This document shows, one piece after another, positions 42,226-53,026 of a stretch of 64,000 nucleotides of DNA. Location of the stretch: positions 147,622,001 through 147,686,000 of the forward strand of contig OZ024741.1 of NCBI GenBank assembly GCA_964016885.1. Direction: 5' to 3'. Made by a program: the position numbers and the translations under genes. Each line of letters starts with the position of its first letter. Position 1 is the first letter of the stretch. Source of the DNA: Eledone cirrhosa (lineage: Eukaryota). The notes beneath the pieces were generated by a model. That model did no database searches and was not told where the DNA came from. It saw nothing but the letters and a program-made list of their open reading frames with translations.

Positions 42226-45767
<3,542 letters not shown>

Positions 45768-45771
45768 TTAT

Positions 45772-46375
45772 TTATTAAAATAACAGATTAAAGTTTAAGC
45801 AAAGAATCGCTGCTTTCACCCTTAACGGGATCTTCTGAAACTAACAAAGTCAATCTGTAAACGCAGAACTGGATATTTCAAAAAACGTTGCATTTATGTG
45901 GTTTTGTCTTTGCGTGCTATTGTTCTCCACGCTCCACATATGACGTATTATCTTCGTTTTTTTCGTTCATTGCCAGAGAACGTCTCTATGCATCACCTAC
46001 GAGAACATTAGTCTACGACCTCTTTTATACCATAAACGTGGTTCTGTCTTTGCGCGTAATTGTTTTTCACCGCTCCTATTAATGACGTATTATATTCGTT
46101 TTTTCCCGTTCTTTGCCAGGGAACGTTTCCACGAACCAAAGTATCGTCTTCCTGTCTTCCTCCGGTTGCAACGTTTTTTTGAAATATCCAGTTCTGCGTT
46201 TACAGATTGACTTTGTTAGTTTCAGAAGATCCCGTTAAGGGTGAAAGCAGCGATTCTTTGCTTAAACTTTAATCTGTTATTTTAATAAATATTTGCTCTA
46301 CGGTTCTTATATATTTGATATATATTTATCCTTATCGAACCCTCTTTGGATTTTAGTCTTCAAATTTATTATTAT

Positions 46376-46380
<5 letters not shown>
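45772..46380. mobile_element. PLE terminal-repeat fragment with inverted 5' copy
   Basis: Arms 45772-45892 / 46167-46291; the body matches 54564-54957; HHR-like agttt-CAGAAGA-t-ccc..ggg-t-GAAA-gca..tgc-TT-aaact. Confidence 0.8.
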
Positions 46381-46473
<93 letters not shown>

Positions 46474-46627
46474 ATGTGTGTGTGTGTGTGTGTGTAGGAG
46501 GTGAGTTTTATTGTAGTACAATAAAGCAATGCAGATATCGGATAAGTAGCACTCAACAGTTTGTAGGACTGGAGTATAAAAAATATAAGATCAAAAGATG
46601 GTTAAAAGAGTTCCATGTATTTTATTA

Positions 46628-48790
46628 ACTAACATTATAAAAAATCTTAAATTCAAGCGAAACCCTTACAGAGGACAAGAGCACCTTGTAAATCTCAAGA
46701 ATACGATTTTAAACCTAAATTCCTCAAAAAATGTTTTAGTACACTCCGACAAAACCAATAATTTATATGGTATATCTAAGGATAACTATTACAACCTTAT
46801 CCTTAAAGAACTTAGGAAGAAATATCGCAAAACTAACCATGATAATTTAGAATCCATAAACTTTGAAGCTTCTGAGATTATGTCAAAACTTGGCATCGAA
46901 AAAAAGACCGAACCATTTCTCCCAAGAACTCCGAGGATAAATCTCAAGGATCACAAAAACAACTTTCGTACTGAACTACCTGTTAGACTAATCACCCCCT
47001 CTAAATCAGATCTGGGGGTTGTTAGCAAAGCCATCTTGAATAGAATTATCCCACAGGTTCGTTCTAATTGCTCTACTTCTAACTTAAATTTATGGTTTGG
47101 TACTTCTGAAGTAATTGGCTGGTTCAACAAATTGAATAAGAAAAACAAACAAAAATGTATTCAATTTGATATTGCCAGCTACTATTCTTCTATTTCGCCC
47201 ACACTTCTCAACAATGCTCTATCTTTCGCTTATAAATATTCAGACATCACCACAGATGAACTTCACATCATTCTCACCGCACGTAAAACCATCTTAGAAT
47301 TCAACAATGAATACTGGACCAGAGCTGATACCTCCAACAACTTTGACATTACAATGGGTGCATCCGATTCATCCCAATTGACAGATTTAATTGGTATCTT
47401 TATTTTGAACTCTTTGAATCGGAAAATTCCTCAACTTCGCGGTGGAATTTATCGGGACGATGGACTTTTCACTATCTGAAATTGCAACATAGTTAACCTT
47501 AATATTATTAAGAACAATATACGTGATTTCTTTAACCAACATAACTTAAAAATTGAATTTGATAACAACATCAAACTAGCTAACTTCTTGGATATATCTC
47601 TTAATCTTGACACTGGCCTATATTACCCTTACCATAAAAACAATGAGAATCTAAATTATGTTAATTTTAAATATAACCACCCCACTAACATTAAAAATGC
47701 TATAGTTAGTAATATTGGAAAAAGAATATCAAACCTATCATCTAATAAAAACATCTTTGAATCTAACGCCAATTACTATAATAACGCGCTTTCTAAAGCC
47801 GGTTATCCTGATAAAATCAAATACAGTAAAGAAACCAATCCTAGAAGATCTTACAGTAAAATAATTAATCATGATCATTCCAATAACTTTAATAAAAGAC
47901 CTAGATACAAAAATATATTCTGGTATAATGCTCCTTTCTCCATCTCTATTAATAATAATATTCCTAAATTATTCTTTAGTGCCTTAAATAAATGCTTCCC
48001 TCCCTCACATATCTATAGTAAAATATTTAACAAACATACTATAAAATTTTCCTCTTCGACCTCCTCCAACATCTCCAACATTATCTCTAAACACAACAAT
48101 AAAATACTAAATACTAAATTTCTTCCTTCCAACACTGAATATCATAGTAATAGCAATAGTACTCCCGACGTCATTGTTAACTCTAGGCTAATTTCTGCAA
48201 ACCCAAATACGACGTCAAACGCAACTTCGTTAAATGTTCTTAATCCCAATCTAAATCAAGAAACTATTATTCCTATCGTAAATAACTTCTCCAATCCAAT
48301 TCCTCCTATAGATAACACTAGGTCACTTGTTAATAACTCTGTTAATTTCTCTAATCGCAATTGTAATTGCCCTGTTAAAAATAAATGTCCTCTCAACAAC
48401 CATTGTCTTGAAAAAAACTTAATCTATGAATGTAAAGTTATAACTGACACCAATTCCTTTACCTATTTTGGCTCCACTTCCACCTCCTTTAAAGCTCGTC
48501 TTTATAATCATCATTCGTCTTTTAAATACCAACTTAAAAGAACCAACACGGCACTCTCAGAACACATATGGTCCTTGAAAGACAAAAATATTAACTATAA
48601 CATCTCTTGGAGGAAAGTTTGTTCTGCCTCTCCATACTTGAATGCCTCTCTATCCAAAACATGTAATCTCTGTTTATGTGAGAAATTTACCATTATATCT
48701 AATTTAGATTCTATAATAAATAGACGCACTGACTTATTTTCTCTCTGCTTGCATACATTCCACAGAACATTCCATAAAGTATACAGCTAA
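46628..48790 (+). pseudogene. PLE reverse transcriptase + GIY-YIG endonuclease with a single in-frame TGA at 47477
   Basis: HSDKTNN, LKDHK, QFDIASYY, ITMGAS, YRDDG, FLDI, CNC.....CPL...C, IYEC...YFGST, FKARLYNH, CNLCLCEK; ORFs 46598 and 47588 share a frame. Confidence 0.9.
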
Positions 48791-48830
48791 TATCTAATAC
48801 TTTACCAATTTAAAATCCTTTTTCTCAAAA

Positions 48831-48892
<62 letters not shown>

Positions 48893-50072
48893 CTTTAAAA
48901 ATATACCCATCTTTCTACCTTATTTCAATGTTATTTATTATACATTATATAATACTAGTTACTCATTCTATATCATTCTTATTTATCACTTCCCTTTCTT
49001 CCTTTTTTCCTTTTTCTTTTAATTTCTAACCTCTAATCTGTACCTTTTCTTCCTAAATACTTCTCAATTCTCATTATTACTCACCACAATATATCCACTC
49101 TTCCTTCTTCCATCATATCACTGGCCATAAAACTTACTATTACCCTTTTAAATACTTTATAGTATCACCTTTAAAAATCCTTCGTAAACATAAACATTTT
49201 TTTTTACGTTAGATTATTCATCCTCAATTCATTATTGTTTTCTCCCTTTCATGCTCGTCTAACTTTTACATATTACACATCACAATACACAAAAACAAAC
49301 TTAAACCTTAACTAATCTCCTTTATTACATTATATTATTACCATTAGAAAATACTTCATAAACATACATATTCTGATGTTAGAGTCTTTTCTTCCTTAAA
49401 CACTATCTCCTTCTTTGCTTTCTGCGCTCATTTGTAAACAAACTATTTACATATATTACACATACATATTACATTACATAAAAACAAACTTAAACACTAA
49501 CTAATTCCTCTAAATTCATAATTCATCCACTCTTCTACTTCTTTTCACATTATATCTTTAATAACATTAATATTTTTATTTTAATAATACATATCAACAA
49601 TTTCTTTCCATCGCACATATTATTAAACCCTTCAATATTCAAACCTTAATTTAATATTATTCTTAATACATATTAACAATTTCTTTTCATCGCACATATT
49701 ATTAAACCCTTCAATATACAAACCTTAATTTAACATTATTCTTAATTTTCTCTCTTCATTAATTTTCAAGTTCTTTTAATTTATATATTATCTTCCAACG
49801 GCTTTTTAACCTCTCTCTGTAAAACAATATATTTTTCACAGTTATAAAGGCTATCTCTCTCTTTCTATCACCCATCTCTCCTCCTATCTCATCCTGCCTT
49901 ACTATACTCCTCCCCCTCCATTCTTTACTCTCATCTCCTCCTCCTTTTCATCCTTTCCAACCCCCCTCATTTTTTTTCCCAATATCACACATCAATCTTA
50001 AACTAATTTTCATATGTTGATTTAAAACTGCACTATTCACAAGTGTTTTTTAACCTTCATATCATGTCTCCC

Positions 50073-50143
50073 TATTTTATCTGACGAAAACGCAAATGTC
50101 ATCGCATGATGATATTTGTTTTTGAAATGCGCATAATAAAATA
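50073..50143 (+). ncRNA. type I hammerhead ribozyme with palindromic stem III
   Basis: tattttat-CTGACGA-aaacgcaaatgtcatc.gcat.gatgatatttgttttt-GAAA-tgcgca-TA-ataaaata; 8-bp stem I. Confidence 0.85.
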
Positions 50144-50171
50144 CATGGAACTCTTTTAACCATCTTTTGAT

Positions 50172-50240
<69 letters not shown>

Positions 50241-50244
<4 letters not shown>

Positions 50245-50435
50245 AAGGAAGTGTGGTAAGGAAACTGGTGGACCATAACGCACCAGAGTACTTGTTACTT
50301 AGAGTAGTAGAGTGGGTAATAGGAAAAGAGTCAGGACCCCGACGTCTGAGCTCTGGCCGTTTCGATAGCTAGATCTGAACGCAGACCTAGCTGTCGAAAT
50401 GGCCGGAGCTCAGCCATCGGAGTCCTGACTCTTTT

Positions 50436-50437
<2 letters not shown>
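50241..50437 (-). repeat. fold-back palindrome element in (TA)n, copy 3 (diverged, opposite orientation)
   Basis: Arms within 50322-50437; tail 50241-50321 homologous to copies 1 and 2. Confidence 0.85.
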
Positions 50438-50501
<64 letters not shown>

Positions 50502-50618
50502 TTGAAGTTTCCGTTGAAAATTGAAAAAGTCATAGGAGTGAAGAGTGCTCTATGTAAGTACCAGAGCAAAATTTAATGTATAATAAACAATACAATATAA
50601 TTACCTCATTACCAGAGG

Positions 50619-50668
<50 letters not shown>

Positions 50669-50672
<4 letters not shown>

Positions 50673-51640
50673 AATGATTTTAGTGCAACTAATTAGAGAA
50701 AGGGTCAAATTAGATGAGATGCAGTTTGGTTTTGTGCCTGGGAAAAATACAACAGATACCCTCTTCTTAGTGAGAGAACTACAAGAGAGGTTCTTAGAGA
50801 AGAGTAAGCCACTATACTTACCTTTTGTTGACCTAGAGAAGGCCTTTGATAGGGTACTCCGATCTGTCATCTGGTGGTCCCTAAGGAAACTAGGTGTTGA
50901 GGAATGGCTTGTGAGGACAGTGCAAACTTTGTACAGAGGTACTGTCAGTAAAGTCAGAGTAGGAATGGAGTTTAGTGAGGAATTCCAGATACAAGTAGGA
51001 GTACATCAAGGTTCGGTCCTCAGCCTGTTCTTGTTCATTATAGTCCTCCAAGCCATAATAGAGGAGTGTAAGACTGGCTGCCCATGGGAACTTCTCTATG
51101 CTGACGATCTGGTTCTTATAGCAGAATCAGTAGAGGAGCTAGAGAATAAATTCTGGTTATGGAAACAGCAGCTGGAGTCAAGAGGACTGAAAGTGAATCA
51201 AGCTAAGACAAAAGTGTTGATAAGTAGAAAAGAGGACAAAACTCTGATTCCATCAGGGAAATGGCCATGTTCAATATGTAGAAAAGGAGCTAGCATAAAT
51301 TCTATAAAATGTACACAATGCAGATCTTGGGTACACAAGAGATGTAGTGGGATAGCAGGCAAACTAACAGGTAGGGAAAACTATGTATGCAGTAGATGCA
51401 CAGGGAAATTTGACAGTAGAAGTCGCATTGATAGACACATTGTTCAAATGCAGGTGGGTTCTATGGAAGTTGTTGATAGCTTCCGGTACCTAGGTGATCA
51501 GATTAGCATGGGAGGGGGAGGGTGTTCCGAGGCCATAGTATCTAGAATAAGGACGGGTTGGAAGAAGTTTAGGGAGCTGCTTCCTCTGTTGACAAAGAAG
51601 GGTTTCTCCCTGCATACGAAAGGCTGGTTTTATGATGCTA
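50669..51640 (+). pseudogene. RTE-clade LINE RT fragment (related to the 34561 family)
   Basis: QFGFVPGK, FVDLEKAFDRV, GVHQGSVLS, LLYADDL, FRYLG. Confidence 0.92.
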
Positions 51641-51825
51641 ATACTATCTATTGGTTGCAACTCCAGGTAGAAGGACCAATGTGAAATAAAGTGTCTTGCC
51701 CAAGGGCATAACGCCTCTCCCGGTCCGTAAATCAAACTCACAACCTCATGATGGTGAATCCAATTCTCTAACCACTTAGCCACGCGCCTTCACTATACGA
51801 GTATATACATATATACATGCGCGCG

Positions 51826-52205: not shown

Positions 52206-52391
52206 TTTTAAGATATATATGTGTGTGTATTATATATATAATACACACAGAGAATTCTGTGTCTAAAATTACGAGAGTAGAGAATACCACAATTGTTTTA
52301 TATATTTAATCTGAATCATATGTAAGATATAAAAAGTTTTTCATATGATATAAACATTTTTTCATATACAGACCGTACCAATAACTATTTC

Positions 52392-52478
52392 ATCTCTCGG
52401 ACAGATTAGAGATTTAATCTGTTTCGCCCTGAAAATTGTTTGTAACAGATAATCCCTAGACTTTCGTCAGCGAGAGAT
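52392..52478 (-). ncRNA. type I hammerhead ribozyme (GUC site)
   Basis: atctctcg-CTGACGA-aa-gtct...gggc-GAAA-cagatta.aatctc.taatctg-TC-cgagagat. Confidence 0.78.
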
Positions 52479-52937
52479 AAGATCAAATGAAAACAAAATA
52501 CATTTAACTACAATTCACGGGAATGAATAGAATAATACACCTCGTGCGTTGGGCGTTATACGTGGTGTGAGTGGGTATGCTAGAAATAATAGCCTTATTA
52601 CACTCAACTTATAAGCTCACCTAGTTAGGGAGCCGAAATACAAATAAAATACAGAGTAACTAACTCATATTGATACCCTGCAATTAACAAGCTCAAAGTA
52701 TAAATACTGAGCGTTATATAAAAAGATTTATATCTTACGTATGATTCAGATTAAATATATAAAACAATTGTGGTATTCTCTACCCTCGTAATTTTAGATA
52801 CAGAATTCTCTGTGTTTATTTCTACATATATTATTATATAGCATACCCACTCACACCACGTATAACGTCCAACGCACGAGGTGTATTATTCATTCCCGTG
52901 AATTGTAGTTAAATGTGTTTTGTTTTCATTTGATCTT

Positions 52938-53026
52938 ATCTCTCGCTGACGAAAGCCTAGGGATTATCTGTTACAAACACAATTTTCAGGGCGAAACAGA
53001 TTAAATTTCTAATCTATCCGAGAGAT
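52938..53026 (+). ncRNA. second copy of the same hammerhead (G-to-A change in stem III next to the cleavage site)
   Basis: atctctcg-CTGACGA-aa-gcct...gggc-GAAA-cagatta..taatcta-TC-cgagagat. Confidence 0.7.

What the first reader, a model, noticed from the sequence alone, without database searches (positions are those of the whole stretch)
46584..50177. Inverted 5' cap of a PLE equals the post-cleavage fragment of its own hammerhead
The 44 bp at the 5' junction (46584-46627) is the reverse complement of 50134-50177, running from the UA cleavage dinucleotide (50134-50135) to the element end. The boundary within 2 nt of the predicted cut suggests the short 3' cleavage product stays in the RNP and is copied from the opposite target strand. 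That would be a DNA-level footprint of in vivo ribozyme activity.
Basis: partly seen in the sequence, partly recalled or inferred. Interest (0 to 1): 0.7.

Follow-up and report, generated by a model that had tools for sequence, protein, structure and literature searches.

The report
Penelope inversions rarely mark ribozyme cut
This mirrored end is the usual inverted, shortened second copy of a very abundant Penelope-type jumping gene, and its stop beside the ribozyme's predicted cut is likely chance; but in the same family tiny hairpin insertions recur exactly at that predicted cut, which likely means the self-cutting RNA sometimes acts in the living animal.

Summary
The 45-nt inverted repeat and the hammerhead motif are real. 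A 3-nt microhomology places the junction anywhere in 50134-50137, which includes the predicted cut. But the inverted piece is 135 nt (46493-46627), not 44: it carries the family's ~90-nt 'tail'. This is the known PLE layout, here in a Hydra-like family with 12,899 end matches. Of 100 unbiased arms, 22 begin at 50009-50015, an initiator-like site 124 nt upstream of the cut, often after an extra G (likely cap-derived). One true arm begins at the cut, and 0 of 42 tailed arms lie within 2 nt. So most template RNA is likely capped and uncut. However, tiny perfect fold-backs with their apex exactly on the cut recur independently: 10 of 15 perfect ones, then 4 of 5 in a second subfamily. Other 2-nt apices have 0-2 each. 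That is a likely minor footprint of in vivo cleavage. The scan noted single such hairpins before, in this genome and others.

The parts
46380..46496 (.). Left target microsatellite, (TA)n then (TG)n; no target-site duplication can be read
   Evidence: sequence
46493..46627 (-). Inverted 5'-truncated second copy (135 nt): last 45 nt of the pLTR plus tail
   Evidence: 133/135 identical to L045, L043 and L035
46493..46582 (-). ~90-nt tail, present at this end only; outer end is the family's long end
   Evidence: 42 of 100 sampled arms carry it
46625..46627 (.). 3-nt microhomology at the inversion junction (element positions 50134-50137 are all possible)
   Evidence: 27 of 28 parsed copies have TTA at this ORF position
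46625..48790 (+). 5'-truncated single ORF (RT then GIY-YIG-type endonuclease), about 80 N-terminal codons missing; copy-specific stop at 47477-47479
   Evidence: Leu codon in 14 of 14 other copies covering the site; 153 homologs, best 44% identity
46748..46756 (+). DKT motif (Hydra-clade form of DKG)
   Evidence: definition in PMC8557442
48362..48388 (+). CxCx5C linker motif (Hydra clade)
48419..48754 (+). GIY-YIG-like endonuclease (LIY...YFG) with CxxC-x-x-E and CxH motifs, no CCHH seen
   Evidence: 2 of 37 homologs hit Pfam GIY-YIG weakly, best E 0.003
48791..50177 (+). 3' UTR ending in the pseudo-LTR
   Evidence: found upstream of the ORF in tandem copies such as L043, L045, L059
50009..50014 (+). 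Initiator-like site; inferred capped RNA start at 50012 and the family's main 5'-end hotspot
   Evidence: 22 of 100 arms; extra G in 14 of 28 junction loci; initiator consensus recalled, not from a call
50073..50143 (+). Type I hammerhead ribozyme motif with palindromic stem III (predicted to need a dimer)
50135..50136 (+). Predicted self-cleavage site (after AUA)
   Evidence: apex of recurrent tiny fold-backs
50174..50178 (+). Short 3' end of the family, joined to (TA)n through shared TA letters
50175..50241 (.). Right target microsatellite (TA)n
   Evidence: sequence

Best explanation
The feature is the known inverted, 5'-truncated, tail-bearing second copy of a Penelope-like retroelement, and its inner end likely falls beside the hammerhead cut by chance. 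Inferred steps: the element's endonuclease likely nicked both strands of a (TA)n/(TG)n microsatellite. One cDNA likely started at the short end (~50174) and ran 3.5 kb through the intact ribozyme into the ORF. A second likely started ~90 nt further 3' (the tail end) and stopped after 135 nt. The two were likely joined through the 3-nt TTA microhomology. Across the family the usual template is likely capped, uncut RNA starting at 50012. A small minority (about 14-20 detectable tiny fold-backs among ~12,900 ends) was likely copied from ribozyme-cut RNA.
For: Shown: 135-nt extent with tail at one end only. TTA microhomology. The long arm contains the whole ribozyme. 5' ends of 100 unbiased arms: 43 upstream of 49990, 22 at 50009-50015 (1.8 expected, p 5e-17), 19 at 50016-50080, 11 at 50081-50133, 2 at 50134-50138 (one is L253, whose junction is 50145) and 3 at 50139-50148. 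Junction counts around the cut are flat. Extra G before 50012: 41 of the first 100 of 5,377 matches, and 14 of 28 junction loci, 8 of them not supplied by the partner arm (read by eye), against 7 of 32 at other junctions (p=0.03 and 0.06). Literature: inverted 5'-truncated copy and one-sided tail are typical of PLEs (PMC8557442, PMC3846280, passages). A purified Poseidon protein cuts and extends both strands and starts at two internal sites that define the tail; ribozyme mutants do not change insertion; no RNA-seq reads ended at the cut (PMC11167929, main text). Untemplated 5' G is attributed to cap copying for L1/SVA (PMC3287187, passages).
Against: The junction interval does include the exact cut, which a short cap would do only about 3% of the time (4 of 133 positions; not corrected for the many insertions a reader scans). 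The family has a recurrent class of fold-backs at the cut, so cut templates probably exist. One asymmetric copy (L345) joins a tailed arm starting exactly at 50136 to an arm starting at 50012 with an extra G. The G excess is only modestly significant. The twin-cDNA model is inferred from structure and was not tested.
Confidence: 0.72

Rival explanations
1. One reading: this cap was copied from the ribozyme's 3' cleavage product held in the same (probably dimeric) particle, while the long arm was copied from a second, uncut RNA.
For: The junction is compatible with 50136. Tiny fold-backs at the cut recur: 10 of 15 perfect 2-nt-apex fold-backs, p=1e-4, and 4 of 5 in a second subfamily, p=0.007. 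Stem III is palindromic and folds as a dimer. The Poseidon protein is predicted to be a dimer (PMC11167929). L345 looks like a cut/uncut pair.
Against: No excess among tailed arms: 0 of 42 and 1 of 28. In a deeper sample 10 tailed arms are compatible with 50136, against about 10 expected from neighbouring positions (my scaling by 2.4). The cap is 135 nt, not the 44-nt piece the model was built on. The long arm needs an uncut template.
Confidence: 0.17
2. The inversion arose by fold-back or self-priming of one cDNA, or by copying of an antisense transcript, at self-complementary spots. The recurrence at 50136 would then reflect a polymerase pause at the ribozyme's helical junction, not a cut.
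For: Palindromic junctions were interpreted as self-priming in PMC3846280 (passages). The 8-nt stem III palindrome is the commonest apex near the cut: 25 of 32 events. 8 events cluster at 50141-50143.
Against: In this copy the arms differ by 3.4 kb, which a simple fold-back cannot give. Nine other 2-nt self-complementary apices have 0-2 events each, so microhomology alone does not explain 14 at the cut.
Confidence: 0.08
3. The short cap is what remains after a later deletion or recombination of a longer inverted arm.
For: Copies show many internal deletions.
Against: Both outer ends are the family's two canonical ends in microsatellite, and short caps with 0-4 nt microhomology are common in closely similar copies.
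Confidence: 0.03

Closest known systems
Inverted 5'-truncated copy plus one-sided tail of endonuclease-bearing PLEs (Penelope, Poseidon, Neptune, Naiad; PMC8557442, PMC3846280, PMC2377424, passages read)
   Same: Head-to-head inverted truncated copy at the 5' end, tail at one end only, partial tandems forming a pLTR, microsatellite target, microhomology junction.
   Different: The tail is ~90 nt, not 30-40 nt. A sharp 5'-end hotspot with an extra G and a recurrent fold-back class at the ribozyme cut are not described in the passages I read.
Hydra clade of C-terminal-endonuclease PLEs (Craig et al. 2021, PMC8557442)
   Same: DKT, CxCx5C, CxxC and CxH around E/N, no CCHH, canonical hammerhead, (TA)n insertion; the clade is reported from molluscs.
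   Different: RWI in place of RWK; unit about 3.8 kb (clade generally <3 kb) with an Asn-rich insert; no tree was built.
Poseidon PAc of Anolis (Frangieh et al. 2024, PMC11167929)
   Same: Two internal start sites define the tail; uncut RNA is the main template.
   Different: They found no reads ending at the ribozyme cut; here a minor DNA class points to cut templates.
L1/SVA 5' inversions and cap-derived untemplated G (G: PMC3287187 passages; twin priming recalled)
   Same: Two cDNAs joined by microhomology; extra G at the RNA's 5' end.
   Different: In PLEs both arms start near the same RNA 3' region and face head-to-head; different RT and endonuclease class.

Membership tests
Endonuclease-bearing Penelope-like element | Single ORF with RT and C-terminal GIY-YIG endonuclease | tested here: met
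   One frame with DDG core, DKT, LIY..YFG. Pfam finds nothing in the window pieces at E 0.001 and no RT or GIY-YIG family at E 5; 2 of 37 homologs hit RVT_1 and 2 of 37 GIY-YIG, weakly.
Endonuclease-bearing Penelope-like element | Pseudo-LTR from partial tandems, inverted 5'-truncated copy, one-sided tail | tested here: met
Endonuclease-bearing Penelope-like element | RT groups with PLE/telomerase RTs in a tree | not tested
   No reference PLE proteins on hand; the PDB profile search found no relative.
Hydra clade PLE | DKT, CxCx5C linker, CxxC and CxH, no CCHH | tested here: met
   window motifs at 46748, 48362, 48662, 48746; 109, 84, 106 and 105 of 120 homologs share them
Hydra clade PLE | N-terminal RWK motif | tested here: inconclusive
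   RWI in family copies; RWK/RWR in 92 of 120 homologs
Hydra clade PLE | Insertion into (TA)n | tested here: met
Hydra clade PLE | Generally under 3 kb | tested here: not met
   about 3.8 kb from start codon to short end; a tendency in PMC8557442, not a strict criterion
Type I hammerhead ribozyme | CUGANGA, GAAA, UH core with three helices; palindromic short helix III | tested here: met
   motif scan and monomer/dimer folding; not matched by Rfam models
Type I hammerhead ribozyme | Self-cleavage 3' of H17 | not testable with these tools
   only indirect DNA evidence
   0 of 42; 1 of 28

The most novel reading that the evidence does not exclude
The insertions of this family record two RNA 5' ends in DNA. 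The main one is a capped start at 50012, marked by an extra G, so most transposing RNA carries an uncut hammerhead. The rare one is exactly at the hammerhead cut, seen as recurrent independent 175-nt perfect hairpins. That would be genomic evidence that a PLE hammerhead cleaves in the germline and that the cut 3' product can be retrotransposed. The window's cap could be one such product paired with an uncut RNA.
Probability: 0.55. Interest if true: 0.68.

Novelty: new member of a known kind. Interest (0 to 1): 0.48.

Why it matters
What hammerheads do in Penelope-like elements is an open question. They cut poorly in vitro (PMC4209133), are dispensable for insertion in vitro, and no cut ends were seen in RNA-seq (PMC11167929). 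A family with about 12,900 ends lets the question be read from DNA. The result is that cutting does not set the inverted caps, that the main template likely starts at a capped promoter site, and that a small class likely starts at the cut. This gives two exact coordinates to test by 5'-end RNA mapping. The single junction in the window is ordinary.

Tried and rejected
Selenocysteine at the in-frame TGA (47477): rejected, 14 of 14 other copies have a Leu codon. The idea that the many 'TATA' hits were copies starting at the cut inside (TA)n: of 14 such loci read, 12 were point variants of the intact ribozyme and 2 were junctions. Rfam found no hammerhead. Pfam found nothing on the window protein, and the PDB profile search nothing. 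RNA evidence: no RNA holder listed. Four contig sets of unknown type from one study did not span the window junction. In three of them, loose ends before 50011/50012 were the best-supported upstream group, but 119 rows were not shown, so I do not count this. One search used a wrong variant position and gave a false peak at 50146; one search is the corrected run. mis-chained palindromic arms; one search replaces it. Stem I complementarity as the source of the perfect fold-backs at the cut: considered and rejected by reasoning, since deletions between stem I repeats give asymmetric products. The Terminon paper (PMC5850863) was not available, so its hammerhead findings are unseen. Supplements of PMC11167929 held as text had none of my three terms; its figure S2 and the supplements of the other papers were not seen and may bear on novelty. 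A sequence look-up in earlier scan notes returned nothing.

Full report
Observation. The inverted repeat is real: 46583-46627 against 50134-50178, 45 nt, 100%, BLASTN E 1e-16. A type I hammerhead motif lies at 50073-50143 with core CUGACGA (50081), GAAA (50124-50127), a palindromic helix III and the predicted cut at 50135/50136. It folds with open helix III as a monomer and with extended helix III as a dimer, the architecture described for animal PLE hammerheads (PMC4209133, abstract to discussion read). Rfam models do not detect it.

Two corrections. First, the ORF itself has TTA just before 46628 in 27 of 28 other parsed copies (30 loci fetched: one is the window, one was not parsed). The junction therefore has 3 nt of microhomology and may lie at 50134-50137, which includes the exact cut. 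Second, the inverted piece is 135 nt (46493-46627), 133/135 identical to three longer copies. The extra ~90 nt is the tail that follows the short end in tandem copies and leads on to the start codon. So the family has a short end (~50174-50177, joined to (TA)n) and a long end ~90 nt further on. A cut 3' product would not be a 44-nt RNA.

The element. [quoted passage not shown] There are 153 homologs, mostly ~700 aa; the best is 44% identical and comes from the octopod Argonauta hians. Motifs DKT, CxCx5C, CxxC..E and CxH, and (TA)n targets match the Hydra clade as defined in PMC8557442 (passages). RWK is RWI here, the unit is longer than usual, and no tree was built. A 16-nt anchor just 3' of the cut has 12,899 exact matches in G000 against 5 for the control. 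An inverted 5'-truncated copy and a one-sided tail are described as typical (PMC8557442; PMC3846280; PMC2377424; passages).

Test 1, unbiased copies. I took the first 100 of the 12,899 anchors and mapped each arm's 5' end: 43 upstream of 49990, 22 at 50009-50015, 19 at 50016-50080, 11 at 50081-50133, 2 at 50134-50138 and 3 at 50139-50148. One of the two near the cut (L253) is a chance extension of a junction at 50145 (same locus as L097). That leaves 1, against 1.3 expected. Of 42 tailed arms, 0 lie within 2 nt of the cut and 7 at 50010-50012.

Test 2, junction density around the cut. One search gave 1,237 anchors diverging at 50129, of which 100 were listed. I read 30 supplied loci, fetched 40 regions that looked like junctions or indels, reused 3 loci, and left unfetched the hits that looked like point variants. 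After dropping point variants, small indels, duplications and four collinear deletions (L103, L111, L128, L130), 51 junction arms remained. Of these, 3 are compatible with 50136 (range 1-12 per position over 50131-50148), and 1 of 28 tailed arms. The upstream control (50106-50123; 100 of 4,664 hits listed, 52 loci read) gave 20 junctions by eye. Rates are 0.0026 and 0.0020 per nt per end, p=0.45. A deeper sample limited to arms ending at 50134-50136 (from the first 100 of 278 hits) gave 10 tailed arms compatible with 50136, about what neighbouring positions predict by my scaling. In addition, the 3.5-kb arm here runs through the whole ribozyme, so its template was uncut.

What the family does record. 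The hotspot at 50012 (22 seen, 1.8 expected) sits on an initiator-like TTCATA (consensus recalled). Among 5,377 matches with a non-reference base before it, the first 100 have G 41, T 44, A 15 (counted by eye). In 30 loci read, 2 were point variants and 14 of 28 junctions had G, 8 not supplied by the partner arm; one locus has it on both arms. Other junctions have G in 7 of 32 non-C cases (p=0.03 for 14/28, 0.06 for 41/100). Untemplated 5' G is attributed to copying of the cap in L1 and SVA (PMC3287187, passages), and the Penelope promoter lies in the pLTR (PMC2377424). I infer a capped, uncut template. This agrees with PMC11167929 (main text read), where ribozyme mutants did not change insertion and no reads ended at the cut.

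Result against my first reading. Locus L079 and scan note e1-9552508 led me to count tiny fold-backs in which both arms end near the cut. One search found 71 and listed 50, about 42 of this family. Ten are perfect hairpins whose apex is the first two bases after the cut. The four other 2-nt self-complementary apices in range have 1, 0, 2 and 2 (p=1e-4), and 8 more events have both arms within 1 nt of the cut. All 10 have different flanks, one tailed and one tail-less arm, and belong to several subfamilies. A second subfamily, all 16 matches listed and 10 of this family, gave 4 at the cut and 1 elsewhere (p=0.007), plus 3 with one arm starting at 50136 (flanks read for 3). Controls 5' of the cut: of 32 events, all listed, 25 turn on the 8-nt helix III palindrome, 2 at 50134, 1 at 50131 and 0 at 50133 and 50129. 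There were 0 at 50113 and 50114 among 50 listed of 93. So microhomology drives many fold-backs, but the 2-nt apex at the cut is several-fold over-represented. The simplest reading is a rare template with its 5' end at the cut. A polymerase pause at the helical junction is the alternative. The uneven contig distribution of the first 10 is unexplained.

Mechanism. Shown: layout, ends, microhomology, distributions. Inferred: nicking of both strands in a microsatellite, two cDNAs from the two internal start sites, joining by microhomology, mostly from capped uncut RNA and rarely from cut RNA. For the window copy I put about 0.17 on a cut template.

Novelty. The structure is known. My searches of the held library turned up no paper reporting a cap-type G or cut-site fold-backs in PLE insertions. 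I read only the passages named above, most subscription papers and one relevant paper were not available, and supplements were largely unseen. The scan's own notes mention single cut-site hairpins in this genome and in a shark, and starts at an upstream RNA end in another genome; these are unchecked leads, not support. Verdict: the flagged junction is ordinary; the family-level signal is a modest, testable lead. Interest 0.48.

Noticed in passing
window 52240-53000: A second, unrelated hammerhead-bearing inverted pair (CUGACGA at 52470 on minus and 52946 on plus; arms 92-98% complementary), probably another PLE family's head-to-head insertion.
   Followed up: no
window 48059-48349: Asn-rich (24% N) in-frame stretch between RT and endonuclease, like the N-rich inserts described for Adineta Penelopes in PMC3846280.
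   Followed up: partly
window 45769-46291: Perfect 117-nt inverted repeat with a 289-nt spacer next to (TA)n.
   Followed up: no
window 50319-50440: GC-rich 59-nt hairpin flanked by (TA)n just downstream of the element.
   Followed up: no
window 43958-45527 (minus) and 50587-51684 (plus): Fragments of another PLE-type RT (DKG motif) and a non-LTR RT frame (labels from recalled motifs).
   Followed up: no
G000 C8-C19 (L323-L331): 9 of the 10 perfect fold-backs at the cut lie on smaller contigs C8-C19 and only 1 on C1-C7, although flanks differ; unexplained. The replicate set lies on C1, C2, C12 and C22.
   Followed up: partly
L354; L103: A head-to-tail tandem whose second unit starts exactly at 50136, and a 14-nt deletion ending at 50136 (excluded from counts).
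   Followed up: no
G000 C2:47113576-47122335 (L037-L041, L051): Tandem array of ORF-internal segments of this family with a period of about 1.7-1.8 kb.
   Followed up: no
G000: The ribozyme-core 16-mer has 25,556 matches, twice the end anchor; the extra copies seen are sibling subfamilies, many as ~240-nt head-to-head pairs turning at 50012.
   Followed up: partly
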